Source of the DNA: a virus
Lineage: Duplodnaviria > Caudoviricetes
Length of the DNA: 53,556 nt
Reading direction: 5' to 3' (one strand)
Virus record (IMG/VR): IMGVR_UViG_3300048838_000256
Span: 1 to 53,556 of that record
Positions within the stretch are counted from its first letter, which is position 1. Each line of letters starts with the position of its first letter. Of the stretch, positions 15,446 to 30,048 are shown in pieces. Below the pieces are notes generated by a model that searched no databases, had not been told where the DNA came from, and was given only the letters and a program-made list of their open reading frames with translations. The position numbers and the translations under genes were made by a program.

Positions 15446-18400
15446 TTCAGCTTCTCCCGCAGTTCCTCGGCCAGCTTGCGCTTCTTCTCCACGATGACGC
15501 GCAGCTTCTCGTCGCGCTCGTCCTCGTCGATGCGGCCGGTGGCGAACTGGCGCTTGATCTGCGCGGCCTCCCGGTCGAGGTCGGACTGCACGGCCATCGC
15601 GCGGGCGGCGGCATTTCGGCGCAGCACGTCCTCGGGGTAGCTGCCCAGCTTCACGCCAACCGACGACGCCAGGGCCTGCGTGGGGCTCATTTCCCGCCCG
15701 AAGGCGTCCGTGCGGCCCGTCATCGAGCCCACGACGCCCTCGGTGGCGTAGGTGCCCGGCACGCCGACGATGTTGGGCATGGCGGCCTTCCACAGGTGGT
15801 CGGCGGCCTTCTTCGCTTGCTCGGTCACGGTGTCGGTGTCGCGGTTGGAGATCTCCTTGCCGGTGAACATCGACTTGTTGGCGACGATCTCGCCCACGAC
15901 GGCCAGCGGGCCACCAGGCAGCAGTGCGGGCGGCACGGGGATGGCGGCGTTGCCCTGTCCCACGTCGAGCACGTCACCCACGGGGATCCAGCGCCGGATG
16001 TCGAGGTACACCGGAGAGCCGTGCTCGTCGTTCCACGGCATGCGGATCAGCTTGGGCACGATGCCCCACACCTTGCCGGCCTTCTCGTCGGGCAGCAGCT
16101 TGCGGGCGCGCTCTTCATCGTCGTCGCCGCCGCCGGCCAGCATGACGCCGATCGCGTTCAGCGCGCCGGCCATCGCCATGAGTTTGAGCAGCTTGTGCGG
16201 GCGCTTGCCGGCGATCTCCAGCAGCATCGGCACGGCACGGTAGGTGTAGCTGATGAACGGCCAGAACGAGGCCCGCATGTTGGCGACCCACGGGGCGTTG
16301 ATCGAGTAGTCGAGGAACGACCGGCGCGCGATCTTGCCGGCCTCGCTGTCGCTGGCGCCGCCCTCCTTGGCGCGTAGCCAGGCGGCGAGGCGGAACACGT
16401 CGTCCTCGGCCTGGTAGAGGTCGATCAGGTTCTTGCCGTCCTGCACGACCTTCTCGACCGGCTTGGAACCGCGCAGGGCCTCAAAGGCGGCCGGGAACTG
16501 GCCGTGCAGCATGGCCTGCAGCGCGGCATACGCGCCGACCTGGCCGCGGCCGGTGGCTGCCGCGGCGGCGTTGACCTCGGCCCGCAGGAGGTCGCGGATG
16601 CCGTCCATCGTGTCCTGGGCGATCTCCTGCGACACCCAGCCGCCGATCGAGCCGCCCGACGCCTCGTAGCGCTGCAGGATCTCGCGCGCGGCCTCGCGGT
16701 CGGCCGCGCCGATCGTCTTGCCGGCCAGGTTGCCGACGGCGCCGATCATCCCCTTGCCCTGCCCCTGGTGGGCGGCCAACAGGATCTGCATGCTCTTGGC
16801 GACGTGGCCGGCCGTGACGTCGTGCCAGTCGGCCATGACCACGTTCGACATGATGTTGTTCATGTGCACGGCCGGCGACAGCGCGGTCTTCGCGGTCTTC
16901 CACGCGGTCAGGATGGTCTGGTAGGTCTGCCCGAACGGCATGGGCCGGTTTCCGATCTGGCGCACGTCGTTCCAGATCGGGCCCGGCAGGTAGCGGCCCG
17001 CCAGGTCGCCGTAGCGCGGCACGCCGGTCCCGGGGATCTTCGTGTCCGGCACGCGGACCCACTCGCTCGGCTTGAACGTGTCCTTGTATCGCTCCGACGC
17101 CTCGACGACCGGCCCGCCCAGGTCCTCGCCCGGCTTCTTCGCCTGGGTCTGCGCAAGCCACTGCAGGTACTTGCCGACCTCGACGTCGTGCACCATGCCG
17201 CGCAGGGTGCGGGCGATGGCGTACCGCGCCTCGTCGATCTCGCCCATGCGCACGCGCTCGTCCTTCGTGAAGTCGCGCCACATCACCACGTCGGCGCCCT
17301 TCGTGTCGACAGCCTCCCACGTGCCGGCGTTCTCCCAGTCGGCGTACTTGGCGGGCCGGGGCTCGCCGGCCGGCCAGAAGTTGACCTCGAGAAGCCGGCC
17401 CGGCCGGCGCTCGGACTCCACGCCCGGCAGCGCCTCGACGCCCTCCCCGGCCGGCGCGCGGCGCTCGAAGCGGATGAAATTCTCGCCCTTGAGCGACGTG
17501 TCGGCCTTGCCGGCGACGTCCTTGCGCTTCCACCACTCGGGAGCGGCGGTCTGGATCTGCTTCATCGACGCCTGGCGCACCATGCCGCGGCCCTTGTACT
17601 GCTCGCCCAGGATGGCGATGGCCCGACCGCGGGTCTGCTTCTCGGCGGTCGTCAGGTCGGCCGCGTGCTTGAAGTAGGAGCGGCGCAGGTAGGCGAACCG
17701 GTGCCGGTCGCGCGCCTCGGGGTCCAGCTGCCCCAGCTTGACCGCCTCTTCGGAGAGCTTGTCGATCAGGTTGCGGACCTCGTGCAGCACCTTGACCGAC
17801 TCTGCCGGCAGTTCCTTCATGAGCTCGTCGGCCGTGCGCGTGTCCTCGCCGGACATCCACTCGTAGGCGACGCGCGACTCGGCGCGGGTCAGGGTGGCGA
17901 GCTTGTCGACCAGGGTGCCGGCCGACAGCAGCTGGCCGCGCAGCGAGCCCTGGAACTCGCCGCGGCGATCGAGCACGGCCTGGGGGATGCCGTAGTCGCT
18001 CACGGTGCCGGCCTTGACGACCTCGGGCACCAGGCGGTCCAGCAGCCGTCCGCCAAGCCCGTAGGCGACGCTGGCGACCCGGTCCAGGCCCGTGACCTTG
18101 GACGCGATGCGGAACGCGGCGTCCAGCGGCCTGGGCGTGCTGGCGCTGGCCTGGATGATGGCCTCGGCGCGGGCGGCGACGTCGGCGGCAGCCGGGTTGT
18201 AGGTGGCGCCCGGCTCGGCGGCGATGCGCGGCCGGACCTTGGCCGGCAGCGACTCGGCGCGCAGGTAGTCGAACGCGGGGCTGGTGTCGGCCGTGACGCG
18301 GGTGCGCCTGGACTGCGGCAGCACTTCGCCGCTCGACACGCGCAGCCTCTCGACCATGCTGACGGCGGCGCCGTCGGCGCCGACGTGGATGGCGTCCAGG

Positions 18401-21400
18401 GTCAGGCCGTAGGTCTGCAGGGCCTCCATCACGAGGCGGTCGCGCCCGACGGCGACGAACTTCGACGCGGTGTTGGCGAGCGCCAGGCGGCGCAGCGTGG
18501 CGGTCGCGGCGGCCACGCGGGCGCGCTTGTCGGCCGCGGTCTTGCCGTCCATGATGGACAGCGCGTCGGCCGGAACGGTCGTGATCGAGTGCACCCGATT
18601 CTGGTGCGACAGCGCCATGAGCGTGACGGAGCCGTCGTCGACCTGCAGGCGGCGGGCGACGTTCATCACGTCGGCCGGGCTGCCGATCTGCGTGCCGGCG
18701 AACTCGCCGCCACCCTCAAACGGCTCGGCGGCACCGAAGTCCTTGGACTCCAGGAGCGAAATGCCGTTGCTGTCGATCGTCGCGTACTGGTTCGTGTCGA
18801 TGACGACGTGCCCCATGAAGCGCATGTCGACCGGGTTGGTGCCGCCCATCTGCGTGCCGGCGCGACTGATCTGCTCGGCGTAGCGCGCAAAGTCCTCCGT
18901 GACGCGCTCGTCGGCCCGGCTGGGCGTCGCCACGCCCGCAGGGTGGTTGTGCATCAGCCACATGCGCTTGGCGCCTTGCGCGGCCGCGGTGCGCATCAGG
19001 CGCTCCATGTAGGCGAAGTAGTTGTTGCCCACGATGACGGCGGTCGAGCCTGGCAGCCGGCTGGTGATGCCGACCTGGGCGACGATGCGCCCGGTGCCAT
19101 CGGTGAAGAAGGCGCGGAACGTCTCGAACCGCGGATCGCGGTAGACCTGCGCCAGCGTGGCGAGTTGCTGCGGCGTGCTCGCTACTTGCCCGACGAGGCT
19201 GACCCGCTGCCGGGCAGCGAGACCACTCGACAGGGCTCGACCAAGTATGGTGTCGGTTCGTCGAAGTACGCGGAGTGCGTCCGCAGCTGCTCCGCGAGCC
19301 GCTTCGACAGCCGGTCCTGCCTGGCTTTCGTCAGGTCGAGCGGCTGCGAACAGGTCGAGCTGGGTGTTGAAGAGGTCGGCTTGTGCGCCATTCTTGAAGG
19401 CCCGGCGGCCCTGGGCCGCCATGAGCGCATTGTCGTCGATCGGATGCTTCGCGCGCCACTTCGCGGCCAGGCGGTCGAACACGTCGGGCTTGTCGGCCAG
19501 CAGCGCGTCGACGTCCTTGAAGCCCCGGGCCTTGGCCTCGGCCTGCAGCCAATCCTCCTGCGCCTCCAGATCCTGCGCGAGGGTCTTGCCGCCGTAGGTG
19601 GGCTCGGGGTCGCGCGTGATGTTGGCGTCGGCCGGGTCGAACGTGCCGCGGTTGCCGATGGCGGACTTGATTTGCTCTGGACGCAGCACCGCGTACACAT
19701 CGCCCTTGGCCTTGCCGTCCGTGCTGGCGCTGTCAACCACGTTGCGCACGATCATCCCGTCGTGACCATGCTCGCGCGCCCACTGCAGCGCGCCCTGCAC
19801 GCTGACGGCGTTGCTCGGCAGGTTGCCGAACACCTTGGGCTTCCACTCCTGCCAGGGAACCGGGATGTTGTCATTGCGCTTGCCCAGCGCGTCGATCACC
19901 AGTGGGTTCTGCATCGACAGGTAGGCTTCAACCACTTGGGGCCGCTTGCCGGGCGAGCGCCACATGCCCCGCTGCATGGTGTACTCGCTCGCCAGCGCCT
20001 GGCTGTTCGTGAAGAAGGCGCCGCTCTTGGCGTCGAACTGCGAGAAGCCGCCATTCGGCGTCCCGTGGTACACCACCAGCGGCCTGCCCTCGGCGTCCAC
20101 CACTTTCGACCCACCGAACCAGCGCTTGAACGCAGGCGTGTCGGTCTGGTCGCCGTACCGCGCGCCGGGGTCGCGCGCCAGCATTTCCGGCGACATCATC
20201 CCCGTCGCGGCGAGCGTCATCGCCTCTTCGATCTCGGCGTCGGTCGCCTCGGGCCCGGCGGCGATCGCGCGCTCCAGGTCGGTGATCTCGCGGCGCAGCG
20301 AGGCCAGCATGCCCACCATCGGCCACTCGGCATTCACGCGCGGGCGCAGGGCGTCGATCTCGGCCTCCAGTTGCGAGATCCGGTCGCGCAGCGTGGTCGG
20401 CGCCTTGGCGACCTCGGCCACGGCGTAGCCCGCGCGCCGCGCGATGCCGACGTCGTCGTCGTTGAGGTCGCGGAACAGCGTGGTGTCCCAGCGCCCGCCG
20501 GTCTGGATGTCGACCTGCCAGCCGTAGTCGGTGCCGTGCTTCCACGACACGAACCGCACCGGGAAGCCGCTGATGCTGCCGATGGTCTGCGACGGCTGCA
20601 CGGCGCTGGACAGATCCTTCGCGCGCGCCTTGAGCGCCTGCGCCCAGTCTGCGCGCTTGACGTAGCCCTTGCCGCCGGCCTCGGCCCGGAAGTTGTCCCC
20701 CGACAGGTCGACGACCTTGGACGCCGCCTCGACGGCCTTGGGCAGCAGGGCGCGCGACGCGGCGATCTCGAGCTCGGCCTTCTGCAGCTGCTCCCGGAAC
20801 CGCTGCTTCTGCGTCTCGTGCGCCTGGTACAGGCGGTCCAGGCGCTCGGCGTCGGCGCGCTTGCCGGCCAACTGCAGCACGCGCGGATCCTCGGCCAGCA
20901 TGCCGGCCGCCTGCTCGGCCATGCTCGCCTCGCTCAGGTCGTCGATCTCGCGCAGGTTGGGGTCGCCCGACAGCGCCTGGTCGATGAACCGCTGCTTCGA
21001 GGCCACCAGGCCCCACATCTGCTCGTCGTAGGTGCCCTTCGCGGCGTAGGCGTGGATGTTGACCGTCGGGTTCTTGTTGCCCTGGCGCACGATGCGCCCC
21101 TCGCGCTGCTCCACGTCGGCCGGGAACCAGGGGGTGTCCAGGTGGAACAGGTGCAGCAGGCGCTGCTGGGCGTTGACGCCCGTGCCCATGTTCTTGCTGC
21201 TGCCGATCATCACGCGGACCTTGCCCGAGTTCATGTCGCGGTACAGCTTGACCTTGTCGGCCGACTTCTTGTAGTCGCTCATCCAGGCGACTTGCGACGC
21301 GGGCACGCCGGCATCGCGCAGGCGCTTGTCGACCCAGGCGCGCGCGTCGAAGCCGCGGTTCCTCGCGGCGCCTGCGCCAAACCCCAGGTCGGCGAACACC

Positions 21401-24400
21401 ATCATCGTCGCGCCCTTGTGGGGCTCGACCTTGCCGGCCTTGTCGGTGAACTCCATGTCGGCCGACGCCTTGAACTGCTGGATCAGGCCGTCGACCATCT
21501 GGTTCAGCTTCGAGCCCGGGTCGCTCGGGGCATCCGGGTAGACGAAGCGCATGTCGATCGCGGCCAGCCGGCCGTCGCCGATGATCTTGATGATCGGATC
21601 GGGGTTGCTCTCACCCCAGAACGACGGCTTCCAATCGCGCGAGTCCTTGTAGCGCTGGGCCAGCACTTCGCGGTAGGCGCGGTAGTCGCGCGTGAGCGGC
21701 GTCACGACGATGCGCCGCGCGCCGCCGCGGACCTTGGGCCGCTTGTCGCCCAGGAACTGCGCCAGGGTGTCGGCCGTGAGCACGTCGGCGAACTCGCGGA
21801 ACATGGTCGTGAGCTCGCCCACGTTCACGAACTTCTTGAAGCGCGTGACCTGCTCGTACTTGCCCGCGGCATTGGCCTCCAGCGACGTCGACTCGCGGCC
21901 GAACTGCGCGGCCCAGGAATCGAAGTCCTCGATGCCGGCCGCCTCCATCTGCTGCCGGCCCAGGAAGCGCTGGACGGTGTACATCTCGCCCATCGTGTTC
22001 GTCAGCGGCGTGCCCGAGAGCATGACCAGGGACCGGCCCGGGTTCTTCTCGTCGAGGTAGCGCGACGCCCAGTACATGCTCATCGACAGCTGCGAGCCCT
22101 CGGTCGTGATGCCCTTGACCTGGCGCGACGTGTTGATGTCGAGCTTGCGCGCGACGTGCGCCTCGTCGACGTACATCATGTCGACGCCCATTTCGTCGAG
22201 GCGGACGCTCTTGTCCTTGCCTTCGCCCAGCATGGTGGCGGCGAGCTTTTCCTCCAGGCGCTGCAGCCTGGCCTCCATGCGCTTGACGGTCTGAGAGCCC
22301 TTCTTCTTGCCCGTCTCGGCCTCGTCGTCGGCCACCTGCTGCTCGATCGCGGCGCGGAGCTCGACGATCTGCTCGGTCATCATCCGGGTCTTGAACGCCG
22401 GATCCAGGTCGAGCTTCTTGAACGCGTCGTGCGTGATGATGATGCCGTCGAGGTCGTTCAGCGCGGCGCGCGCGATGAAGCGGCGCCGGTTGTCGCCGGT
22501 GAAGTTGGCCTCGTCGGCGACCATCAGCTTGGCGGCCGGGTACAGCTGCAGCCACTCGCGTTGCCACTGGCCCAGCATGTGATTGGGCACGACGAAAATG
22601 GGCTTCTTGATGAGGCCCAGGCGGCGCTGCTCCATCGCGGAGATCACGGCCGCCCAGGTCTTGCCCGACCCGACGGCGTGCGCCAGGTAGGTGTTGCCCG
22701 ACTGGATGATCCGCCACGCGCCGCGCTTGACGTGGTCGAACACGTCGATCAGCCGGCTCGACCCGGGCATCGTCAGGTGCCGGCCATCGAACGCGCGCCC
22801 GATCGTGGTGTTGAACTTGTCGTTGTACAGGCCGATCAGGCGCGTCGTGCGCTCGGCGTCGCGCCACACCCAGGACGCGAACTCGTCGTGCAGGGCGTTG
22901 AGCTTGGCGGCGGCAGCCTCGGTCGCGGCCTTGTCGAGTTGCTTCGTCGCGTCCTTCCCGCTGCCCACGGTCTTGTAGACCTTGACCTTGCGGCCCGTCA
23001 GCGCGTGGTCCAGGAGCTCGCCCGCGTGGCGGTCGTAGGTGCCCCAGTCGGTCGTGGCCTTGGTCGGGCGGTTGCCCGCGACCCGCTCCTTGTAGCGGAT
23101 GCTCCACTTGCGCGTCGTCTCGTTGAACGACACGCGCGCGTCGACCTCGGCCGTCTCGCGCAGGAACTGCTCGTAGACGTCCGACGGGATCCAGTTCATG
23201 CCCATGCGGATGTTCACGTCCGCGGGCGACCGGCCTGGCGGCTGCACAGCCTCCAGGGCGGCGACGTTGCGCTCGTAGCGGCGGTCGCCCTTGGCGGCCT
23301 CGCGCGCCTCGGCGAGCTTGAGCTTCACGTTGCCCGACAGGTAGGCGTCAGCCGTCTCCCAAGCCTGGCCCTGCGGGTTCTGGTAGACCGCGGCGCCCAG
23401 CGCCTCGGCGGCCTCGGTCTCGGTGATGTCCAGGCGCGCGGCGATCTCCGGCATGTCGATGCGGCCCAGGTCGGCCAGCGTCGTCATCATCGCGTCGTGC
23501 GGCGCGGCGATCGTGGGCTCGGGTTTGCCGCCGAGCACGCGCTCGGACAGCGACTTGCCGGGCTTGACGTCGCCGGTTTCCTCGTTCACGTCCTCCAGGG
23601 CCGCGACCAGGGTGTAGTCGGGGTCGTCGGCCAGGCGGTTCAGCAGCGGGTAGACGCGCGTCTCGACCTCGTCCTGCTCCTTGACCATGACGGGGTTGCC
23701 GTCCTCGTCCTCGACGACGTTGCCGTCCGCGTCGACCTGCTCGACCTCGACCGCGACCTTGCGGCGCTGCACGGTCGACTGGTTAAGCAGGCCGTGCTTC
23801 TTCGTGAAGGCGGCATAGGCGGCCTGCAGCGCCTTGAGGCTGGCCTCCCAGTCGCCGCCGTTCAGCTGGTCGTGCTGCGCCTGCTTGAGCGCGTCGCGCA
23901 GCGGCACGTAGTCGGTCAGCAGGACAATGTCGTCCCGGGTCTTGCCCTCGACGGCCTTGGCCGCGCGTTTGGGCTTCTCGACGACGGCCTGGCCCAGCCC
24001 GCCCTCGCGCTGCATCAGCACGCCGGCGTCGGAGAGGTAGAAGCCACCCTCCTTGCGCGCCTTCGGGTTGAAGTCCACGTCTCGGACCTGCGCGGCCTGG
24101 GCGGCGCTGCCGGCCGGTGGCGCGAACACGTCGGCCGGCATGCGCTCGACCGCGGCGCGGAACAGGTCGCCGATGTCGCCGGCCGGCGCGGTGACGGTGT
24201 ACTCGCGCGCGGCACGCATGCTGCCGGTGGCCGCGTGCGCGCCCAGCACCATGTCGGGGTGCGCGTCGAAGTATTCGTTGACCGTGGCCTGCACGTCCGG
24301 CAGGGCCTTGCCGTCCTCGTCCACGCCGCCGCTGACCATCAACGGCTTGCCGTCGGCGTCAAACACGGGCTTCGTGCCCGCCCACGCCTGGCCGGCGTCG

Positions 24401-27400
24401 AACGTCTCGCCGGGCACCTTCTTGCGCAGGAACAGCACGTCGGTCACGACCTCGGTGCCGGCGTTGTCCTTGAACGCGGTCTGCGGCAGCCGGATGGCGC
24501 CCAGCAGGTCGGCGCGCTCGGCCATGAAGGCGCGTGCGCTGTCGTCCTGCTTGTCCATCGTGAAGCGGCTGGTGACGAACATCAGCAGGCCGCCCGGCCG
24601 CACCCGGTCGAGGGTCTTGGCGAAGAAGTAGTCGTGCAGCTTGAACGCGCGCCTGCGGTACTCCGGGTCGGACAGGACCGCGAACCCGGCGAATGGCGGG
24701 TTGCCGATGCCGACGTCGTAGAAGTCCTTGGGCAGCTTCGAGTCCATGAACGACTCGACGCGCACGTTCTCGTCGGGGAACAGGTGGCCCAGGATGGCGC
24801 CGGTGATCGAGTCGTACTCGATGCCGGTGTAGGCCGTGTTGGCGGCCAGGTTCTCGGGCATCAGGCCCGGGAAGTTCCCTTTGCCGCCGCCAGGCTCCAG
24901 CACCAGGCCACCCTTGAACCCGAAGCGTTCCAGGGCGCCCCACATGCCGCGCACGATGGGCGCCGACGTGTAGTGCCCGTACTGGGTCGAGCGCGAGGCT
25001 TCAGCCCATTCCTCGGGCGTCAGCGCGGCCTTGAGGCGGTCGCGCAGCGCCAGCCAGCGGCGCATGGCCGGCGCCGGGCCCGCCTTCTTGACCTGGTCGG
25101 CAGTGATCTCGGTCAGGTCGTTCCACGACAGCTTGGGGTCGGCCTTGCGCAGTACCTCGAAGGCATCGAACCAGCCGTCCGGCGTGCCGCCGTAGCGCGC
25201 CCAGCGGTCGCGGCGCAGCGTGCCGCCAGCCTTGTCGACGGCGGCCAGCGCGCGATCGAACGCCGGCAGCATGGCCTTGACCTTGTTGAGCTTGTCGCCG
25301 AAGAGGTTGTTGGCGATCTCGCTGGCGCCCCAGCCGACGAACTTGGCGAGCGTGGCCTGCTCTTCGCGCGTGGCCTTGCGGTTCTCGGCGGCCAGCGCCT
25401 TGACGAGCTCGACCGCCTCGACGTTCCACTCGGCGCGCTTGGCCCAGGAGCCGGGCGGACTGATGTCCGCATCGGTGAAGCGGTAGTTCAGCCCTGACTT
25501 GGGGCGGATCGTTCGTCCGGCAGGCTCTCCACCGCCTGCGCGAGCGCGACCTCGCGGGCGCTCTGGTCCGCGTTGTTCATCGCTTGCACCTTCTGCAGGT
25601 ACGGCAGCCCCTTGGCCGTCGCCTGCGAGTTCGCCCGCGCCGACGCCGTCACCGCGGCCTGGTTGACCGGGTCCGCGACCCCCCGCAGGTACGCCAGCCG
25701 CTCGCCCTTGGCGGCCAGATCCTCCCGGAACTTCGGCGCCCGCTCCTGCAGGGCCTTGTCCAGCGTTTCCATCAGCAGGGTCAGTGCCATCGCGGCCTCC
25801 TTCGTTGTCCCGATTATCGCTCGTCGCAGAGTTCTGCGATAAAATGGAGTCCGAAGGAGGTGACGAAGTGAAAGTCCCAGACAGGTTCCCGGAAGGCTCC
25901 AAGTTCTTCGAGTCTGACTCGGGCATGCTGGCCGTGCTGATCCCGTCCGAAGGCCCCTTCAACCTGGTCGGCGGCGAGCTGGTCAAGGCGCGGCGCTGGC
26001 CGCCGTCTTCGGAGGCGATGCCCTTGTCAGAAGCCTCCTGGCGCAAGCTGGCCGCGGCCGAAGCGGCGCCATAGAACACACGCTGCGCGGCGATGACCTC
26101 AAGCGCAGCATCCGACCCGGCCGGCATCACGCGCTCGATGTCGTACAGCTTGTGGCCCTGGCCCTCCTTGGCCGCGATCATTTCCGGGATGTTGATGAGG
26201 ATTTCGGCCTCGATGCCGCCGATCTTCACGTTGACCAACACGTCGCCGTAGCCGGAGCCCAGCAGGCCCGGGTCGCCGGTCAGGTCAGGCGCTTTCAGCG
26301 AGGCCGGCGTGCGGTTCTTGACCCGGCCCGGCGAAACCTCGAACCGCTTGTAGATCGTGTCCAGCACGCGTTGCGCGTCGGCGTAGCTGGAGACGACGAT
26401 CGTCGAGCGCAGCAGGTCGCGCATCTTGTCGGCCTGCATCCCGTTGTCCAGCACCAGCTTCTCGGCGCTTCGCCCGATGCTCTTGATCGGCGCCAGCAGG
26501 TAGCCGATCGCGCCGCTGACGCGAGCGATCTCGGCCACCTTGTCGTCGAACACAGGCTTCTGGTCGTTGGCGGTCTGCAACATCGGCGCCATCAGCGCCT
26601 CGGCCTGGGCGCGCTCTTCCGCGGTGATCGTCTGCTTCGGCGCATCGCCCGTCTGCAGCCGCTGCACGTCGGCCTTGGCCTGCGCGATCGCGTCGGCGGG
26701 CAGGTGCTCGGCCTCCTTGAAGTCCGTGATCTGCATGAGGCTCGCAGAAGGAGCCGGGGCGGCCGGTTGCGCAGCCGGCGCCCCGGCAAACAGGTCGCCC
26801 TGCACGGCGTCGGTCGCCGCGGCCTCGTCGTCGAAAAGGCCGCGCTGCGCGCCGCCCTGCTCCACCTTGCGCAGCGCCTCCTGGGCGGCCTGGCGGTACT
26901 GCTCGGTACTGACCTTGTTCCAGTGCTTGCGGGTCTTCGGGTCGGCTTTCAGCTGCTGACGCACCCAAGCGGTCAACCGCTTGAGGTCCGTGCCGATGAG
27001 CTTGATGCCCTTCTCGCACAGGTTGACGAGGATCTTCTGCAGGTCCGGCGCCTTCTCGCCAACCAGGGCCGCGCGCTGGTGGCGCGTCAGGAAGTCGCCC
27101 AGGTCGGCCAAGGCGTCCTTGAAGTCCTGCACGGCGGCGCGGCGCGGATCCGCCGCGCTCTCGCCCGACGTCGTGGTGCTCGGGAAGGCGTGAATGGCCT
27201 CCAGCACCTGCTCGGCCGGCGCGTTGAATCGCAGCGCGCGCAGCGTGTCGCCCTTGACCCGCTGGGCCAGCCAGCGGTGATGCCCGTCGATCACGTAGCC
27301 GTCAGCCGAAACCAGCGCCGTCGCGGTGTCGCCGGCGGCCTCCATCGCGCGCTTCGTCTTCTTGCGCGAGAACTCGGCCTGGGTCGGCTTGAGCGAGGCC

Positions 27401-30048
27401 GGGTCGACCTCGACGATCTCGTGCTCGATGCCGCGGGCCTTGAGGAAGTTGACCATCGCGCCGCGGTCGGCCATCTTGACCTGCGGCATCTGCGAGCGCG
27501 GGATGCCCAGCGTGCCGGACTCGGGAGCGAACCCGACCCAGTCGGGCCCGGTGGGGTCGTTCGCGGCCGTCGGCGCTGCCGTCGGCGCGGCGGGTTCCTG
27601 CACCTGGCGCAGCGCGCCATCGAGCAGCGCGCCGACGGTGGGCGCCTGGTCGCCGCCCAGCAGCGACGCCTGCGCCGGGTCGCCGGCAGCGTCCAGCGCG
27701 TCGGCGTAGGCCGTCAGCAGGTCGGCGATCCGGCGCGGCCGGCGCGCATTCTCGGCCATGAAGCCCAGCAGCTTGGCCGCCTCGGGGCTGCGGCCCTGGC
27801 CGTCGATCGCCTGCTGCCCCAGCGCCTCGCCGACGGACTGGCCGGACTGGCGCAGCCGCTCGAGCTCGCCCGCGGCCTCGACCAGGGCCGGCGTGATGTC
27901 GGCCGGGTGGCGGCGGCCAGCCTCGGCAAGCGCCTTGACCTGCGCGACGCGCGGCGCGGCCATGACCAGCGCGCGGGCGATGTTCCGGCCGGTGTCGTCC
28001 ATCGACTCCACGAGGCGGGTGAGCACGGGCGAGTCGCCGTAGGCCTTGGCCAGCACGGCGTTGCGCACGCGGGCGTAGCCGGCCGCCGACAGGCCGCCGT
28101 CGGCGTCGATGGCCGCGCCGCGCTCGGTCTGCGGCAGCGTGCCGACGAAGCGGCGGATGAAGTCGCGGGAGTTGGTGAACTCGCCGGTGTCGGTCGGGTT
28201 CAGGTCGTCCAGCGTGTCGATGCGCGCGGCGTCGGACAGGGCCTGCTCCCGCGGCGACATGGCGGCCACGGTCGGCGCGTTGGCCTGACGGGCGAACTCG
28301 GCGCGATTCACCGGCGTGGAGCGCACGCGCACGAGCACGGGATTGCGCATGCCCTCGATCTGCTCGGCGGCCAGGCCGAACCGGTCGGCGTTCTCCGACA
28401 GCCACGTGCGGTACTGCTGGGCCTTCAGGCCGTTGGCGGCGTAGACGCGGCGCAGCGCGATGGTGCGCGCGTTGCCGGATTCCACCAGGCCATCGGCGCC
28501 GATGATCGGCGCGCCGTCGGCAGCCGTGGCCGACTCGCCCAGGCGAGCCGGGTCCAGCCGGCCGACGATGCTCTGGATCTGGGTCGCACTCGCAGCGCGG
28601 TCGCGCTGGCGCGGCTGCAGGGACTGCGGGTAGGCCGGGTTCGGGCGCAGGTTCGTGTCGTGCGACGGCTGCATGTCTTCGGCCTCGACCAGGGCGTACT
28701 GGCCCTCCAGGCTCGCGCCGGCCTCGGTGGAGAAAGTGGTCGGCGCACCGGGCACCAGGGCGGGCCAGTCCTTCGACAGGGCGGCGCGCTCAGCCTGCAG
28801 CGCGGCGGTGTCCGCGCCGGCCGGCGCGGCGGAGATCTCGGCGTCGATTGCCTGCACGCGGTCGAGCGCCGTCAGGTCGGCGGGCGGCGCCTGCAGCGCC
28901 GCGGTGGCGGCGTCGGCGGCGGCCGGCTCGTTGTCGGGGACGGCGTCGCGGGGCGCCGACCCGGTCGCGGCCGGCGTTGGATCCGCGGCGGCGGCGGCCG
29001 GCTGGCCTTCGGCCTTGCTGGCGCGCAGCGCGTCGACGCCCGACGAGTAGGCGCTCATGCCGCCGCCCATGCCGGCGCCCGCCACCATGCCCTGCGCCGC
29101 CGCCTCGGCGACGCCATCGTCCCACGGCTTGCCCAGCGCCAGGTTCTGCCACACCTGCTCTTGCGCGGACTGCGGCAGTTCCTCTAGCACGCCTTCCTTG
29201 AACGTGTCTTTCGCCAGCGCCTTCGCGGCCTCCTTGACGGTCGCGCCGGCACCGCCGGCGGCGCCCATCCCCGCGGTCGCGGCCTTGGCCTCGACGTCCC
29301 GGAACCCGGGGATCTTCGAGGTCAGGAACCCGATGCCGGCCGTCGTCGCGCCGGCCGCGAGCGCGTGGCCGGCCGTGTCGGTGTAGTCGCGGCCGGCCTG
29401 GCGGCCCGACTCTTGGATCGAGCCGGCCGTCATGGCGCCCTCGGCTCCAGAGCTGGCCGCCGTCAGCTTGGCGACCACGGACGGCTGCGACAGGAACTTG
29501 GCCGCGGCCTCGGTGCCGGGGGCGATGCCGCGCGACGCCAGCATGCGCATCGCCAGGCCGCGCGCCGCGGCAGCGCTGCCCAGCATCAGCGGCGCCGACT
29601 CGACGACCGAGCCGAAGGCGGCGGACGGATTGCTTGCCAGAGCCAGGGTCGTGTCCCAGAACCCCTTGGCGTCCTGCACCGCCTTGTTGGCGGCCTTGCG
29701 GCTGTCGCTGTAGCCCTCCGACAGCGCCTGCTTCGTGCGCTCCGGGTCGTAGCCGACAGCGCCGAGGCCCTTGCCGACGAGGTTGCCGGTCGCAAGGTCG
29801 GCCAGGCCGACGACAGACTCGCCCAGGCCGACGACACCCTTGCCGGCGTCGATCGCCGTGTCGGTCGCCAGTTCGCTCCACGTGCGCTCGGGGGCGTCGA
29901 CCGGCTCGGCCGCGGTCGCGACGGGGGGCGCGGCCGGTGCCATCAGCGGGACGAAGCGGCCGGCTGCGGTCGGCGGTTGCGCCTGCAGGCCGTCAGCAGG
30001 GGCGGGGGCTTGCGGACGCTGCCCTGGCGTCAGAGGGACGAACGGCAT
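15442..30048 (-). CDS. darB: Giant DarB-like polyvalent virion-injected protein (4868 aa)
   Basis: ddrB-ParB (~28710-28270: LQPR.R, GAPI, VESGNAR); ParB-like (~27515-27180: LKPTQ, IDGHHRW); RelA/SpoT-like (~26620-26090); N6-MTase (LEPGGGKG, GNPPF); SF2 helicase (AHAVGSGKT, DEAH, QREGR..RQGN); ART-PolyVal (~20150-19620); JAB/RadC (HNHPAG..PS.AD); LPD38-like C-terminus. Confidence 0.93.
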   Translation of the reverse strand: MPFVPLTPGQRPQAPAPADGLQAQPPTAAGRFVPLMAPAAPPVATAAEPVDAPERTWSELATDTAIDAGKGVVGLGESVVGLADLATGNLVGKGLGAVGYDPERTKQALSEGYSDSRKAANKAVQDAKGFWDTTLALASNPSAAFGSVVESAPLMLGSAAAARGLAMRMLASRGIAPGTEAAAKFLSQPSVVAKLTAASSGAEGAMTAGSIQESGRQAGRDYTDTAGHALAAGATTAGIGFLTSKIPGFRDVEAKAATAGMGAAGGAGATVKEAAKALAKDTFKEGVLEELPQSAQEQVWQNLALGKPWDDGVAEAAAQGMVAGAGMGGGMSAYSSGVDALRASKAEGQPAAAAADPTPAATGSAPRDAVPDNEPAAADAATAALQAPPADLTALDRVQAIDAEISAAPAGADTAALQAERAALSKDWPALVPGAPTTFSTEAGASLEGQYALVEAEDMQPSHDTNLRPNPAYPQSLQPRQRDRAASATQIQSIVGRLDPARLGESATAADGAPIIGADGLVESGNARTIALRRVYAANGLKAQQYRTWLSENADRFGLAAEQIEGMRNPVLVRVRSTPVNRAEFARQANAPTVAAMSPREQALSDAARIDTLDDLNPTDTGEFTNSRDFIRRFVGTLPQTERGAAIDADGGLSAAGYARVRNAVLAKAYGDSPVLTRLVESMDDTGRNIARALVMAAPRVAQVKALAEAGRRHPADITPALVEAAGELERLRQSGQSVGEALGQQAIDGQGRSPEAAKLLGFMAENARRPRRIADLLTAYADALDAAGDPAQASLLGGDQAPTVGALLDGALRQVQEPAAPTAAPTAANDPTGPDWVGFAPESGTLGIPRSQMPQVKMADRGAMVNFLKARGIEHEIVEVDPASLKPTQAEFSRKKTKRAMEAAGDTATALVSADGYVIDGHHRWLAQRVKGDTLRALRFNAPAEQVLEAIHAFPSTTTSGESAADPRRAAVQDFKDALADLGDFLTRHQRAALVGEKAPDLQKILVNLCEKGIKLIGTDLKRLTAWVRQQLKADPKTRKHWNKVSTEQYRQAAQEALRKVEQGGAQRGLFDDEAAATDAVQGDLFAGAPAAQPAAPAPSASLMQITDFKEAEHLPADAIAQAKADVQRLQTGDAPKQTITAEERAQAEALMAPMLQTANDQKPVFDDKVAEIARVSGAIGYLLAPIKSIGRSAEKLVLDNGMQADKMRDLLRSTIVVSSYADAQRVLDTIYKRFEVSPGRVKNRTPASLKAPDLTGDPGLLGSGYGDVLVNVKIGGIEAEILINIPEMIAAKEGQGHKLYDIERVMPAGSDAALEVIAAQRVFYGAASAAASLRQEASDKGIASEDGGQRRALTSSPPTRLKGPSDGISTASMPESDSKNLEPSGNLSGTFTSSPPSDSILSQNSATSDNRDNEGGRDGTDPADGNAGQGPAGAGAEVPGGSGRQGRAAGVPAGGRGPGQPGRGDGVGAGELAGDGQGAAVPAEGASDEQRGPERPRGRARAGGGEPAGRTIRPKSGLNYRFTDADISPPGSWAKRAEWNVEAVELVKALAAENRKATREEQATLAKFVGWGASEIANNLFGDKLNKVKAMLPAFDRALAAVDKAGGTLRRDRWARYGGTPDGWFDAFEVLRKADPKLSWNDLTEITADQVKKAGPAPAMRRWLALRDRLKAALTPEEWAEASRSTQYGHYTSAPIVRGMWGALERFGFKGGLVLEPGGGKGNFPGLMPENLAANTAYTGIEYDSITGAILGHLFPDENVRVESFMDSKLPKDFYDVGIGNPPFAGFAVLSDPEYRRRAFKLHDYFFAKTLDRVRPGGLLMFVTSRFTMDKQDDSARAFMAERADLLGAIRLPQTAFKDNAGTEVVTDVLFLRKKVPGETFDAGQAWAGTKPVFDADGKPLMVSGGVDEDGKALPDVQATVNEYFDAHPDMVLGAHAATGSMRAAREYTVTAPAGDIGDLFRAAVERMPADVFAPPAGSAAQAAQVRDVDFNPKARKEGGFYLSDAGVLMQREGGLGQAVVEKPKRAAKAVEGKTRDDIVLLTDYVPLRDALKQAQHDQLNGGDWEASLKALQAAYAAFTKKHGLLNQSTVQRRKVAVEVEQVDADGNVVEDEDGNPVMVKEQDEVETRVYPLLNRLADDPDYTLVAALEDVNEETGDVKPGKSLSERVLGGKPEPTIAAPHDAMMTTLADLGRIDMPEIAARLDITETEAAEALGAAVYQNPQGQAWETADAYLSGNVKLKLAEAREAAKGDRRYERNVAALEAVQPPGRSPADVNIRMGMNWIPSDVYEQFLRETAEVDARVSFNETTRKWSIRYKERVAGNRPTKATTDWGTYDRHAGELLDHALTGRKVKVYKTVGSGKDATKQLDKAATEAAAAKLNALHDEFASWVWRDAERTTRLIGLYNDKFNTTIGRAFDGRHLTMPGSSRLIDVFDHVKRGAWRIIQSGNTYLAHAVGSGKTWAAVISAMEQRRLGLIKKPIFVVPNHMLGQWQREWLQLYPAAKLMVADEANFTGDNRRRFIARAALNDLDGIIITHDAFKKLDLDPAFKTRMMTEQIVELRAAIEQQVADDEAETGKKKGSQTVKRMEARLQRLEEKLAATMLGEGKDKSVRLDEMGVDMMYVDEAHVARKLDINTSRQVKGITTEGSQLSMSMYWASRYLDEKNPGRSLVMLSGTPLTNTMGEMYTVQRFLGRQQMEAAGIEDFDSWAAQFGRESTSLEANAAGKYEQVTRFKKFVNVGELTTMFREFADVLTADTLAQFLGDKRPKVRGGARRIVVTPLTRDYRAYREVLAQRYKDSRDWKPSFWGESNPDPIIKIIGDGRLAAIDMRFVYPDAPSDPGSKLNQMVDGLIQQFKASADMEFTDKAGKVEPHKGATMMVFADLGFGAGAARNRGFDARAWVDKRLRDAGVPASQVAWMSDYKKSADKVKLYRDMNSGKVRVMIGSSKNMGTGVNAQQRLLHLFHLDTPWFPADVEQREGRIVRQGNKNPTVNIHAYAAKGTYDEQMWGLVASKQRFIDQALSGDPNLREIDDLSEASMAEQAAGMLAEDPRVLQLAGKRADAERLDRLYQAHETQKQRFREQLQKAELEIAASRALLPKAVEAASKVVDLSGDNFRAEAGGKGYVKRADWAQALKARAKDLSSAVQPSQTIGSISGFPVRFVSWKHGTDYGWQVDIQTGGRWDTTLFRDLNDDDVGIARRAGYAVAEVAKAPTTLRDRISQLEAEIDALRPRVNAEWPMVGMLASLRREITDLERAIAAGPEATDAEIEEAMTLAATGMMSPEMLARDPGARYGDQTDTPAFKRWFGGSKVVDAEGRPLVVYHGTPNGGFSQFDAKSGAFFTNSQALASEYTMQRGMWRSPGKRPQVVEAYLSMQNPLVIDALGKRNDNIPVPWQEWKPKVFGNLPSNAVSVQGALQWAREHGHDGMIVRNVVDSASTDGKAKGDVYAVLRPEQIKSAIGNRGTFDPADANITRDPEPTYGGKTLAQDLEAQEDWLQAEAKARGFKDVDALLADKPDVFDRLAAKWRAKHPIDDNALMAAQGRRAFKNGAQADLFNTQLDLFAAARPDESQAGPAVEAARGAAADALRVLRRTDTILGRALSSGLAARQRVSLVGQVASTPQQLATLAQVYRDPRFETFRAFFTDGTGRIVAQVGITSRLPGSTAVIVGNNYFAYMERLMRTAAAQGAKRMWLMHNHPAGVATPSRADERVTEDFARYAEQISRAGTQMGGTNPVDMRFMGHVVIDTNQYATIDSNGISLLESKDFGAAEPFEGGGEFAGTQIGSPADVMNVARRLQVDDGSVTLMALSHQNRVHSITTVPADALSIMDGKTAADKRARVAAATATLRRLALANTASKFVAVGRDRLVMEALQTYGLTLDAIHVGADGAAVSMVERLRVSSGEVLPQSRRTRVTADTSPAFDYLRAESLPAKVRPRIAAEPGATYNPAAADVAARAEAIIQASASTPRPLDAAFRIASKVTGLDRVASVAYGLGGRLLDRLVPEVVKAGTVSDYGIPQAVLDRRGEFQGSLRGQLLSAGTLVDKLATLTRAESRVAYEWMSGEDTRTADELMKELPAESVKVLHEVRNLIDKLSEEAVKLGQLDPEARDRHRFAYLRRSYFKHAADLTTAEKQTRGRAIAILGEQYKGRGMVRQASMKQIQTAAPEWWKRKDVAGKADTSLKGENFIRFERRAPAGEGVEALPGVESERRPGRLLEVNFWPAGEPRPAKYADWENAGTWEAVDTKGADVVMWRDFTKDERVRMGEIDEARYAIARTLRGMVHDVEVGKYLQWLAQTQAKKPGEDLGGPVVEASERYKDTFKPSEWVRVPDTKIPGTGVPRYGDLAGRYLPGPIWNDVRQIGNRPMPFGQTYQTILTAWKTAKTALSPAVHMNNIMSNVVMADWHDVTAGHVAKSMQILLAAHQGQGKGMIGAVGNLAGKTIGAADREAAREILQRYEASGGSIGGWVSQEIAQDTMDGIRDLLRAEVNAAAAATGRGQVGAYAALQAMLHGQFPAAFEALRGSKPVEKVVQDGKNLIDLYQAEDDVFRLAAWLRAKEGGASDSEAGKIARRSFLDYSINAPWVANMRASFWPFISYTYRAVPMLLEIAGKRPHKLLKLMAMAGALNAIGVMLAGGGDDDEERARKLLPDEKAGKVWGIVPKLIRMPWNDEHGSPVYLDIRRWIPVGDVLDVGQGNAAIPVPPALLPGGPLAVVGEIVANKSMFTGKEISNRDTDTVTEQAKKAADHLWKAAMPNIVGVPGTYATEGVVGSMTGRTDAFGREMSPTQALASSVGVKLGSYPEDVLRRNAAARAMAVQSDLDREAAQIKRQFATGRIDEDERDEKLRVIVEKKRKLAEELREKLN
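19182..19391 (-). CDS. Overprinted out-of-frame ORF (69 aa) inside the giant gene
   Basis: GC3 bias shifts from the giant frame to this frame (CTC GAC CTG ACG AAA GCC AGG CAG GAC CGG CTG TCG AAG CGG CTC GCG GAG CAG CTG); no clear SD. Confidence 0.45.
   Translation of the reverse strand: MAHKPTSSTPSSTCSQPLDLTKARQDRLSKRLAEQLRTHSAYFDEPTPYLVEPCRVVSLPGSGSASSGK
25488..25790 (-). CDS. Nested out-of-frame gene, TnpV-like helical protein (100 aa)
   Basis: GAAGGAGG SD 5 nt before ATG; natural helical composition while the giant frame here is Gly/Arg/Ala/Pro low-complexity; pattern L.E..P....L...G....YL...VQ.MNN....ARE..L. Confidence 0.8.
   Translation of the reverse strand: MALTLLMETLDKALQERAPKFREDLAAKGERLAYLRGVADPVNQAAVTASARANSQATAKGLPYLQKVQAMNNADQSAREVALAQAVESLPDERSAPSQG
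25868..26074 (+). CDS. Nested antisense gene (68 aa), candidate immunity/antitoxin for the RelA/SpoT-like domain
   Basis: AAGGAGGTGA SD (25854-25863) before GTG 25868; TAAAAT at 25840; giant frame here is Ser/Pro/Thr-rich as expected for an antisense reading. Confidence 0.75.
   Translation: MKVPDRFPEGSKFFESDSGMLAVLIPSEGPFNLVGGELVKARRWPPSSEAMPLSEASWRKLAAAEAAP

What the first reader, a model, noticed from the sequence alone, without database searches (positions are those of the whole stretch)
25488..25790. TnpV-like gene overprinted in the giant ORF, ending where the MTase-helicase module starts
Seen: strong SD (GAAGGAGG, 5 nt, ATG), a 100-aa natural helical sequence, the giant frame here reads as G/R/A/P-rich off-frame text, and the stop lies at the LNYRFTD start of the DarB core. 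Recalled pattern: resembles TnpV proteins (YL.EH.P..Y..L...G.L..HL...WV..MNNI...AEE.V). Known: P1 ulx lies next to darB and aids its packaging. Inference: a small DarB partner or chaperone gene was retained in another frame when upstream modules fused to DarB by read-through.
Basis: partly seen in the sequence, partly recalled or inferred. Interest (0 to 1): 0.8.

Follow-up and report, generated by a model that had tools for sequence, protein, structure and literature searches.

The report
TnpV-like gene nested in giant gene
A real 100-codon gene for a small helical TnpV-like protein is written one base out of frame inside the floppy linker of this phage's 4,868-codon DarB-like virion protein gene, and related phages and plasmids keep both readings, although what the small protein does is still unknown.

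Summary
Window 25488-25790 (-) is a 100-codon ORF with GAAGGAGG-5 nt-ATG. It lies in the +1 frame of the 4,868-codon giant ORF (15442-30048, -), and its stop overlaps the first conserved codon of the methylase-helicase core.

- **Coding frame:** there, GC3 is 0.93-0.97 in the small frame and 0.48 in the giant frame.
- **Chance in the window alone:** this could keep the giant frame open (P about 0.41).
- **Relatives:** all 65 related phage loci show the same layout, with 0 giant-frame stops against 3-9 in the third frame.
- **Stop avoidance:** in 26 non-redundant loci, stop-creating T is used at 0 of 531 risky codon ends against 124 of 1241 safe ones.
- **Substitutions:** they shift to the small frame's third position.
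- **Translation start:** 25 of 26 starts have an SD-like motif.
- **Family:** distant TnpV relative (hhalign 86.6%, E 4.4e-6). No Pfam score reaches the cut-off.
- **Canonical TnpV:** it is nested the same way in 6 of 6 chosen Firmicutes-type loci.

P1 Ulx is not homologous. A chaperone or partner role is inference only. This scan has noted the same layout before on other DNA. My paper searches found no description.

The parts
25488..25790 (-). Nested gene: 100 codons plus TGA, encoding a TnpV-like four-helix protein (P0001)
   Evidence: ORF and translation. GC3 is 0.93-0.97 in this frame. Homologous ORFs sit at the same place and in the same frame in 65 loci. AF2 pLDDT 89.8. hhalign to canonical TnpV 86.6%.
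25796..25803 (-). Shine-Dalgarno GAAGGAGG, 5 nt before the ATG at 25790
   Evidence: Read directly. An SD-like 4-mer lies at -20..-4 for 25 of 26 non-redundant nested starts, against 465 of 2333 other ATG triplets in the same loci.
15442..30048 (-). Giant ORF of 4,868 codons: a DarB-like polyvalent virion protein
   Evidence: ORF. Pfam: ddrB-ParB 123 bits, ART-PolyVal 73 bits and RadC 35.6 bits are over their cut-offs; SNF2, ResIII, Helicase_C and Eco57I fall under theirs. The methylase part is 51-56% identical to annotated DarB-like proteins of Ralstonia and Burkholderia phages.
25491..26100 (-). Stretch of the giant frame that reads as low-complexity G/R/A/P/D/E/S text (a presumed disordered linker). 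Its last 300 nt are the nested gene read in the -1 frame.
   Evidence: Translation, GC by phase. The giant frame has no stop here and no ATG/GTG/TTG between 25884 and 25395. The upper bound near 26100 is approximate.
21079..25491 (-). Methylase-helicase (DarB core) module of the giant protein, beginning LNYRFTD at 25491
   Evidence: Pfam positions 1773-2990 of P0002. tblastn to DarB-like proteins and to P1 DarB (30.5% over 185 aa, E 1e-11). Alignment A7. The lower bound is computed from Helicase_C ending at residue 2990.

Best explanation
**Shown.** 25488-25790 (-) is a real protein-coding gene lying wholly inside the giant DarB-like gene, one base out of frame (+1 relative to the giant frame). 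It encodes a 100-residue four-helix protein that is distantly related to TnpV (PF14198). The giant gene reads the same DNA as a low-complexity linker just before its methylase-helicase module. In relatives, selection keeps the amino-acid sequence of the small frame and keeps the giant frame free of stops. This is therefore true dual coding.

**Inferred from sequence signals.** The small protein is made by its own initiation at the SD plus ATG on the giant gene's mRNA. The giant protein is made by ribosomes reading straight through.

**Inferred, about one chance in three.** The small protein is a cis-encoded partner (chaperone or adaptor) of the giant protein, which is packaged and transferred with the DNA. 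It would then be functionally comparable to P1 Ulx for DarB, without being related to it.

The confidence figure below is for the shown and signal-based parts, not for the function.
For: **Window**
- The ORF, SD and ATG are present.
- The GC3 signature switches to the small frame at 25500-25790.
- The giant frame has no stop.

**Relatives**
- tblastn of P0001 hits Bcep22-type phages inside gp75, but in its +1 frame.
- The same ORF, with ATG and SD, is found in Bcep22, Gervaise, Y7, LASTA, PEp14, VvAW1, Itty13, Atu_ph08, POI1126, USP_18 and PBC5, and in 50 IMG/VR loci.
- In 65 of 65 loci the giant frame has 0 stops across the nested ORF, while the third frame has 3-9.

**Selection, in 26 non-redundant loci**
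- T at the nested third position before AA/AG/GA occurs at 0 of 531 sites, against 124 of 1241 elsewhere (Fisher p 1.5e-20, not corrected for phylogeny).
- P(giant frame open) is 3e-5 to 4e-3 in loci of 42-58% GC.
- In 5 of 5 clades, 56-91% of differences in the readable flanks fall on the giant frame's third position. The upstream flank gave no usable pairs in 2 clades and showed no bias (0.33/0.36/0.31) in Gervaise-like phages. Inside the nested ORF, 42-66% fall on the nested third position and only 11-23% on the giant third position.
- SD-like motif at 25 of 26 starts; start codon ATG in 25 and GTG in 1.
- A stop lies 2-6 codons upstream of the start in 7 of 26 loci.

**Family**
- hhalign A1 against canonical TnpV: 86.6%, E 4.4e-6.
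- A six-frame Pfam TnpV search of whole phage records finds the nested ORF as the top hit in 3 of 4 group-b phages (PEp14, LASTA, Atu_ph08; not POI1126).
- 24 of 150 profile-search hits match TnpV, and no other family recurs.

**Generality**
- Canonical TnpV is nested in the same frame relation in 6 of 6 examined gut-phage or plasmid loci of 39-53% GC: 0 of 140 against 72 of 329, Fisher p 8e-13. For L085 the Pfam score is 133 bits, over the cut-off. The other five were identified as TnpV by tblastn with the L085 protein only (E 2e-25 to 7e-6).

**Giant protein**
- JC1 gp69, the homologous giant protein, was found in virions with 51 unique peptides (PMC9144972, Table 6, passages read).
Against: - No direct evidence of translation of the small ORF exists here: no proteomics, Ribo-seq or RNA data were examined.
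- In the window alone the open giant frame is compatible with chance (P about 0.41).
- P0001 itself has no Pfam hit, and a six-frame TnpV search of the window's record finds nothing.
- No nested protein reaches the TnpV gathering score; the best is 26.7 against 27 bits.
- Group b against canonical TnpV gives only 6% by hhalign.
- PBC5 carries the upstream modules in the small frame because of a 1-nt deletion. Some metagenomic proteins (P0031, P0150, P0151) carry the TnpV-like part in frame at their C-terminus. Separate initiation is therefore not the only arrangement in nature.

**Against the partner function**
- Many canonical TnpV genes are annotated as stand-alone genes on plasmids.
- In the S. 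gallolyticus element the TnpV gene lies about 30 kb from the SNF2 gene.
- Ulx shows no similarity.
- The six Firmicutes-type loci were chosen because TnpV and a DarB-like gene co-occur there, so they do not measure how often TnpV is nested.
Confidence: 0.85

Rival explanations
1. Chance or annotation artefact. In a 70% GC genome a shifted frame stays open by accident, so either the small ORF or the giant read-through is not a real product.
For: - P(giant frame open) is 0.41 for the window under a synonymous-codon null.
- Long shadow ORFs are common here, for example 16504..25497 (+), 2997 aa, antisense to the giant gene.
- P0001 has no Pfam hit.
Against: - 65 of 65 loci keep both frames, including loci of 42-50% GC where P(open) is 3e-5 to 2.5e-3.
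- The substitution pattern shows purifying selection on the small frame.
- SD-like motifs occur at 25 of 26 starts.
- The fold is confident.
Confidence: 0.03
2. There is no separate initiation. The TnpV-like segment is reached by programmed +1 frameshifting from the giant frame, giving a shorter 'upstream modules plus TnpV-like' protein beside the full giant protein, like PBC5 gp22.
For: - In-frame forms exist: PBC5 gp22 (2,180 aa) ends with the TnpV-like segment.
- PHROG phrog_938 matches group-b nested proteins at profile positions 2084-2173 of 2185.
- P0031, P0150 and P0151 have the segment at their C-terminus.
- From my own knowledge, SD-like motifs can stimulate frameshifting.
Against: - A stop in the nested frame lies only 2-6 codons upstream of the start in 7 of 26 non-redundant loci.
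- The first codon is ATG in 25 and GTG in 1 of 26.
- The SD spacing is that of initiation.
- I saw no conserved slippery sequence by eye. This was not searched for formally.
Confidence: 0.07
3. The giant ORF is really two genes. Ribosomes start at the nested ATG and shift -1, or re-initiate, at its end (CTGA overlap) to make 'TnpV-like plus DarB core'. The upstream modules are a separate protein.
For: - The giant frame has no ATG/GTG/TTG between 25884 and 25395, only a CTG at 25491 overlapping the TGA.
- Gervaise has the same CTGA overlap.
Against: - Selection removes stops from the giant frame along the whole nested ORF (0 of 531). That would be needless if the giant frame were entered only at the end.
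- The upstream part has no stop of its own.
- The position of the nested stop relative to the core varies. Bcep22 has TAA five codons earlier with no start-like codon, and Atu_ph08 and PBC5 have an extra domain between them.
Confidence: 0.05
4. Rival for function. The nested protein is not a partner of the giant protein. It is a small regulator or DNA-binding factor of the mobile element, as has been proposed in print for TnpV in transposon excision or integration, and it merely shares the giant gene's transcript.
For: - Canonical TnpV is often annotated as a stand-alone gene on plasmids without a giant gene under the match.
- It lies about 30 kb from the SNF2 gene in the S. gallolyticus element.
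- PMC9815147 (passages read) calls TnpV a gene 'involved in conjugative element integration'.
- The window has an inverted repeat TTATCGC/GCGATAA just upstream of the nested start.
Against: - The nested position inside giant methylase-helicase genes recurs in proteobacterial phages and in Firmicutes-type elements. That points to a link with the giant gene itself.
- The model has no recognisable DNA-binding fold: Foldseek found no match at E <= 0.001, and the best VIA Z was 6.2, to generic helical hairpins.
Confidence: 0.25

Closest known systems
TnpV (Pfam PF14198), small protein of Tn4451-type transposons and Firmicutes conjugative elements
   Same: - Size about 100-125 aa and all-helical.
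- Shared motifs: ..P..Y..L...G.L..(H/Y)L near the N-terminus and MN....AEE.. near the C-terminus.
- hhalign 86.6%, E 4.4e-6.
- Canonical TnpV is nested in the same +1 frame of giant SNF2/methylase genes in 6 of 6 loci examined.
   Different: - P0001 gets no Pfam hit, and its relatives stay under the 27-bit cut-off (best 26.7).
- It lacks the N-terminal 'LTYT..GDY.IP.L' segment of canonical TnpV.
- Here it lies directly before the methylase core of a phage virion protein, not 146-300 codons from the N-terminus of a plasmid or ICE protein.
Embedded spanin gene Rz1 inside Rz (lambda; also reported for the Lessieviruses in PMC9144972, passage read)
   Same: A complete gene with its own start lies wholly inside another gene on the same strand in a shifted frame, in a phage.
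   Different: - Rz and Rz1 are two small partners of one complex.
- Here a 100-codon gene sits in a 4,868-codon gene, and the host frame reads it only as a low-complexity linker.
- The +1 frame of Rz1 is stated from my own knowledge.
P1 Ulx with DarB
   Same: A small protein encoded next to darB. It is a head protein listed as 'Aids DarB localization' (PMC9024508 Table 1, passage read). This is the functional analogy behind the partner hypothesis.
   Different: - ulx lies downstream of darB and is not nested.
- There is no sequence similarity (hhalign under 1%).
- Pfam TnpV finds nothing in P1.
comS inside srfAB of Bacillus subtilis
   Same: A small gene lying out of frame inside a very large multi-module gene.
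   Different: comS is 46 codons and lineage-restricted. The nested TnpV-like gene is about 100 codons and is conserved across distant phage genera and Firmicutes-type elements.

Membership tests
TnpV (Pfam PF14198) | Match to the Pfam model at or above the gathering score (27 bits) | tested here: not met
   - P0001: no hit at E <= 10.
- Six-frame search of the window's record: none.
- Relatives: TnpV is the top hit in 11 of 18, best 26.7 bits.
TnpV (Pfam PF14198) | Profile-profile similarity to canonical TnpV over most of the domain | tested here: met
   - A1 (window subfamily) against A8 (7 canonical TnpV): probability 86.6%, E 4.4e-6, 78 columns, TnpV positions 36-115 of 117.
- Group b against A8: only 6%, E 0.006.
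TnpV (Pfam PF14198) | Small all-helical protein of about 110-125 residues | tested here: met
   100 aa, four helices, pLDDT 89.8. No solved TnpV structure was found to compare with.
Same-strand overprinted (dual-coding) gene pair | Both frames kept by selection in diverged relatives | tested here: met
   - 0 of 531 against 124 of 1241 stop-creating T.
- The substitution phase shifts in 5 of 5 clades.
- 65 of 65 loci keep both frames open.
Same-strand overprinted (dual-coding) gene pair | Both products actually made | not testable with these tools
   - Signals only: SD plus ATG.
- The giant homologue is found in JC1 virions.
- No data exist for the small protein.
DarB-like polyvalent virion protein (host gene) | N6-adenine methylase plus SF2 helicase core related to P1 DarB, joined to further modules in one ORF | tested here: met
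   - tblastn: 51-56% identity to annotated DarB-like proteins, and 30.5% over 185 aa to P1 DarB (E 1e-11).
- ddrB-ParB, ART-PolyVal and RadC are over their Pfam cut-offs.
- Helicase and methylase models are under theirs.
P1 Ulx | Sequence similarity to Ulx | tested here: not met
   hhalign probability 0.7% (A3) and 0.2% (A1).

The most novel reading that the evidence does not exclude
The nested TnpV-like protein is a dedicated transfer chaperone for giant polyvalent proteins. It would be used alike by phages, where the giant protein is packed in the capsid and ejected, and by conjugative elements, where it would be sent through the mating channel. It would be made from the very stretch of mRNA that encodes the giant protein's linker, so that the two are produced together in a fixed ratio and place. 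If so, the TnpV family, named for a transposon and of unknown role, would be an ancient partner of DarB-like anti-restriction proteins, and the long overlap would be a device for coupling their synthesis.
Probability: 0.25. Interest if true: 0.85.

Novelty: new variant of a known kind. Interest (0 to 1): 0.75.

Why it matters
Long same-strand overlapping genes that are demonstrably kept by selection are rare in bacteria and their phages. This one is about 300 nt long. It is conserved from proteobacterial podophages to Firmicutes-type plasmids and gut phage contigs.

It is absent from every isolate annotation I looked at: Bcep22, DC1, Gervaise, Y7, LASTA, PEp14, VvAW1, Atu_ph08, POI1126 and USP_18 list only the giant gene, and Itty13 lists ORFs on the opposite strand.

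It also explains the odd G/R/D/E-rich 'linker' of these giant proteins as the shadow of another gene. It gives the orphan TnpV family a genomic context, and so a testable hypothesis. It also warns that gene callers and domain surveys of polyvalent proteins miss a component of DarB-like anti-restriction systems.

For this window in particular it adds a divergent, high-GC subfamily that Pfam does not detect.

Tried and rejected
**Fold and binding**
- **Co-folding:** the nested protein (A4) with the first 520 residues of the methylase core (A7) gave no verdict (ipSAE 0.01 and 0.00, mark 0.32). This is not evidence either way.
- **Fold searches:** Foldseek against PDB and BFVD found no match at E <= 0.001. 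The VIA-align wide search gave a best Z of 6.2 (rmsd 2.5, 64 aligned), to generic helical hairpins. No fold assignment was made.

**Family searches**
- NCBIfam and PADLOC gave no hit for 6 nested or TnpV proteins.
- The ESM Atlas scored at most 0.87. Rank 5 is a cluster in which 31% of members carry TnpV. This is a lead only.
- **Ulx homology:** rejected.

**Promoters**
- By eye I saw -35/-10-like hexamers upstream of the nested start in the window and in Bcep22.
- The scan tool found 0 promoter-like sites in window 25300-26300 and in L001 2500-3500, so I make no promoter claim.

**Closer relatives of the window**
- Only three proteins were found (73-76% identity).
- Two metagenome scans and one viral scan with P0001 found nothing.
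- A viral scan with the Y7 protein also found nothing.

**Other checks**
- **Plasmids:** tblastn with the PEp14 nested protein found 1 record.
- **P0003** (+ strand ORF 25868-26074): no tblastn match in phages.
- **PHROG phrog_938 hit ('endolysin'):** explained by PBC5 gp22, which carries the nested segment in frame after a 1-nt deletion. It is not a lysis function.

**Paper searches**
- 'Bcep22'+'gp75': 2 papers.
- 'DarB-like'+'overlapping': 6 papers, none on nesting by their listing.
- 'TnpV'+'polyvalent proteins': 0 papers.
- 'Ulx'+'DarB'+'antirestriction': 6 papers.
- 'TnpV': 38 papers.
- 'TnpV'+'SNF2': 1 paper.
- The statement that the nested gene is not in print rests on these searches only. 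Subscription journals are not covered.
- Supplements, for example the JC1 peptide lists, were closed and might hold peptides of the nested protein or of the linker.
Full report
**1. The observation**

The window is a whole IMG/VR virus record of 53,556 bases, 93% complete by CheckV and about 70% GC.

On the - strand a 4,868-codon ORF runs from 30048 to 15442. The 100-codon ORF 25790..25488 lies inside it on the same strand. GAAGGAGG (25803-25796), five bases and then ATG precede it. Its TGA (25490-25488) overlaps the CTG of L-N-Y-R-F in the giant frame.

The giant protein carries ddrB-ParB, ART-PolyVal and RadC domains over Pfam's cut-offs, and methylase and helicase models under them. Its methylase part is 51-56% identical to annotated 'DarB-like antirestriction' proteins of Ralstonia and Burkholderia podophages, and 30.5% identical to P1 DarB over 185 residues.

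GC by codon phase shows that from 25500 to 25790 the small frame carries the genome's coding signature (GC3 0.93-0.97, GC2 0.48). On both sides the giant frame carries it. Across the small ORF the giant frame reads G/R/A/P/D/E-rich text. It has no stop, and no ATG/GTG/TTG between 25884 and 25395.

**2. Is it more than chance?**

In this window alone it is not. The giant frame's first codon position coincides with the small frame's GC-rich third position, so stops are rare, and a synonymous-codon null gives P(open) = 0.41. The answer comes from relatives.

- **First relatives.** tblastn of the small protein found six Burkholderia Lessievirus records (35% identity, E 7e-5). Each hit lay inside the annotated giant gene but one base out of its frame.
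- **Bcep22 and Gervaise.** Reading them showed the same layout: SD, ATG, about 107 codons, and a stop at the first conserved residues of the methylase core, with the giant frame open and G/R/D/E-rich.
- **More isolates.** The same was found in Pseudoalteromonas Y7 (47% GC), Klebsiella LASTA, Erwinia PEp14, Vibrio VvAW1 (50% GC), Pseudomonas Itty13 and USP_18, Agrobacterium Atu_ph08 and Ochrobactrum POI1126.
- **Uncultured phages.** It was also found in 50 IMG/VR loci, and in 6 more Gervaise-type ones.
- **Frame counts.** In 65 of 65 loci the giant frame has 0 stops across the nested ORF and the third frame has 3-9. One locus is cut off inside the ORF.
- **Extent of the giant frame.** It runs to the end of the fetched DNA, or to an annotated gene start, in all loci except two cases: PBC5 (two records of one genome) and L073, where it opens 625 nt upstream and was not examined further.

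**3. Selection on both frames**

In 26 non-redundant loci (at most 80% identity), a T at the nested frame's third position before AA, AG or GA would create a giant-frame stop. It is used at 0 of 531 such places against 124 of 1241 elsewhere (Fisher p 1.5e-20). P(open) is 3.3e-5 for VvAW1, 2.5e-3 for Y7, 8.5e-4 for L073 and 3.7e-3 for LASTA. These figures are not corrected for shared ancestry.

Within five clades of close relatives, 56-91% of differences in the readable flanks fall on the giant frame's third position. The upstream flank gave no usable pairs in two clades and showed no bias (0.33/0.36/0.31) in the Gervaise-like clade. Inside the nested ORF, 42-66% fall on the nested third position and only 11-23% on the giant third position. 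The Gervaise clade is the weakest, at 0.38/0.21/0.42.

So the amino-acid sequence under purifying selection there is that of the small protein. The giant frame is selected only to stay open.

**4. How the small protein is made**

- SD-like motifs precede 25 of 26 non-redundant starts, against 20% of other ATG triplets (465 of 2333).
- The start is ATG in 25 and GTG in 1.
- In 7 of 26 loci a stop in the nested frame lies 2-6 codons upstream.

This favours independent initiation over entry by frameshifting.

There are exceptions. PBC5 carries a 1-nt deletion (plus a 12-nt insertion) about 45 nt upstream, which puts the upstream modules in the nested frame. Its gp22 (2,180 aa) therefore ends with the TnpV-like segment. 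That also explains the PHROG 'endolysin' match of group-b proteins at profile positions 2084-2173.

A few metagenomic proteins carry the segment in frame at their C-terminus or N-terminus, or fused to membrane-spanning tails. Their DNA could not be fetched.

**5. What the small protein is**

Two subfamilies exist. Group a holds the window, Bcep22, Gervaise and Y7. Group b holds LASTA, PEp14, VvAW1, Itty13 and Atu_ph08. They align in register (hhalign 64%, E 6.4e-5).

- **Pfam.** TnpV is the top hit for 11 of 18 nested proteins, but never reaches 27 bits (best 26.7, E 5.9e-6, profile positions 32-108 of 111). P0001 itself has no hit.
- **Whole-record search.** A six-frame TnpV search of whole phage records finds the nested ORF in PEp14, LASTA and Atu_ph08. 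It finds nothing in POI1126, Bcep22, Gervaise, Y7, VvAW1, P1 or the window's own record.
- **Profile against profile.** The window's subfamily against seven canonical TnpV proteins gives 86.6%, E 4.4e-6 over 78 columns. Group b gives only 6%.
- **Profile search.** Against 1.84 billion representatives it found 1,330 proteins at E <= 1e-3. The top 150 are mostly 75-130 aa, and 24 of them match TnpV with no other recurrent family.
- **Model.** AF2 gives a confident four-helix protein with no specific structural neighbour.

I therefore call it TnpV-like: a distant relative, not a Pfam-defined member.

**6. The same nesting with canonical TnpV**

In gut contig MT835575 a TnpV ORF scoring 133 bits (over the cut-off) lies in the +1 frame of a 3,176-codon ORF. 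That ORF has MutS_I, N6_Mtase and SNF2/helicase domains.

I then examined four more fecal contigs that hold both TnpV and a DarB-like methylase, out of the 31 fecal contigs with a TnpV match. I also examined one E. faecalis plasmid whose match lay under an annotated 'SNF2-related protein', out of 39 plasmid records. In these five loci the ORF was identified as TnpV by tblastn with the MT835575 protein only (E 2e-25 to 7e-6); Pfam was not run on them.

All six loci show the same picture:
- TnpV is nested with its own SD and ATG.
- The giant frame has 0 stops against 13-17 in the third frame, at 39-53% GC.
- P(open) is 8e-6 to 1e-2.
- Stop-creating T is used at 0 of 140 places against 72 of 329.

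These loci were picked for co-occurrence, so they show that the layout exists with canonical TnpV, not how frequent it is. Many plasmid TnpV genes are annotated as stand-alone. In one Streptococcus element TnpV lies about 30 kb from the SNF2 gene.

In these elements TnpV starts at giant codon 146-300, which is 1-3.6 kb upstream of the methylase. Direct abutment on the methylase core is therefore particular to the phage group. Even there, Atu_ph08 and PBC5 have an extra domain in between.

**7. Function**

Nothing here tests function.

The recurrent embedding in genes for giant methylase-helicase proteins suggests a link with the giant protein itself. These proteins are carried in virions: JC1 gp69 gave 51 unique peptides (PMC9144972, passages read). 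From my own knowledge they are thought to be transferred with the DNA.

My preferred reading is a cis-encoded chaperone or adaptor, at about one chance in three. The analogy is P1 Ulx, a 17-kDa head protein listed as aiding DarB localization (PMC9024508 Table 1; PMC12810830 introduction and discussion; passages read). But Ulx is downstream of darB, is not nested, and shows no similarity. A regulatory or DNA-handling role, as loosely claimed for TnpV in PMC9815147 (passages read), is the main rival.

**8. Novelty**

The isolate annotations I saw list only the giant gene, or for Itty13 ORFs on the opposite strand. My six paper searches found no description of a nested gene.

Embedded phage genes such as Rz1 in Rz are known, so I rate this a new variant of a known kind.

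After my own analysis I looked up this scan's earlier notes. They report the same nested TnpV-like gene in at least 9 other phage genomes, and nested tnpV in giant ICE genes in at least 68 genomes. These are AI notes. My results agree with them and were obtained independently on this window and on the loci cited above.

Noticed in passing
window 25868-26074 (+): A 68-codon ORF (P0003) with GAAGGAGGTGACGAA-GTG lies on the opposite strand, inside the giant ORF and diverging from the nested gene. GC by phase hints at + strand coding (0.62/0.48/0.83). It has no Pfam hit and no tblastn match in phages.
   Followed up: partly
window 25791-25867: A 77-nt stretch of lower GC lies between the two nested starts and holds the inverted repeat TTATCGC/GCGATAA. 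The giant frame stays open through it. The promoter scan found 0 promoter-like sites.
   Followed up: partly
window 16504-25497 (+): A 2,997-codon ORF lies antisense to the giant gene. It is a shadow ORF typical of high-GC DNA, and by GC phases it is not the coding strand.
   Followed up: partly
L010 (Pseudomonas phage Itty13, NC_070969.1 2873-9763): The record's annotated CDSs over the DarB-like region lie on the strand opposite to the tblastn match. They are probably shadow ORFs called in place of the giant gene.
   Followed up: no
L014 / L040 (Sinorhizobium phage PBC5): A 1-nt deletion plus a 12-nt insertion about 45 nt upstream of the nested ATG, relative to Atu_ph08-like phages, puts the upstream modules in the nested frame. 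The giant gene is therefore annotated as two genes. This is either a real break or an old sequencing error.
   Followed up: partly
L079 (IMG/VR Ralstonia-phage-like locus), about 2850 onward: The giant frame jumps from the first residues of the methylase core straight to a region that lies several hundred residues further on in relatives. This looks like an in-frame deletion of the methylase part.
   Followed up: no
L015 (Streptococcus element MN270279.1), locus about 8989-9322: A TnpV reading frame (82 bits) with an internal TGA and a frame change lies directly after the end of the annotated SNF2 gene and before tet(O). PMC9815147 reports that cargo elements inserted in snf2 'carry a TnpV gene'. 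In such cases the TnpV might belong to the interrupted giant gene rather than to the cargo.
   Followed up: no
proteins P0011, P0022, P0042, P0063, P0065: These proteins have a TnpV-like N-terminal domain followed by hydrophobic, membrane-spanning-looking tails. P0034 has the domain in frame before the conserved 'IDPE...KPYL.SFWE' domain that precedes the nested gene in Bcep22.
   Followed up: no
L011, L014, L036, L061, L068 (Atu_ph08/PBC5-type loci): An extra conserved domain (GPFGPILRGYEGKWREAALELERRQ...) sits in the giant frame between the nested gene and the methylase core.
   Followed up: no
P0001 (ESM Atlas): The nearest feature clusters (scores 0.85-0.87, leads only) are 90-96-aa hypothetical proteins whose few labelled members are mostly Actinomycetota. 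The host of this 70% GC phage is unknown.
   Followed up: no
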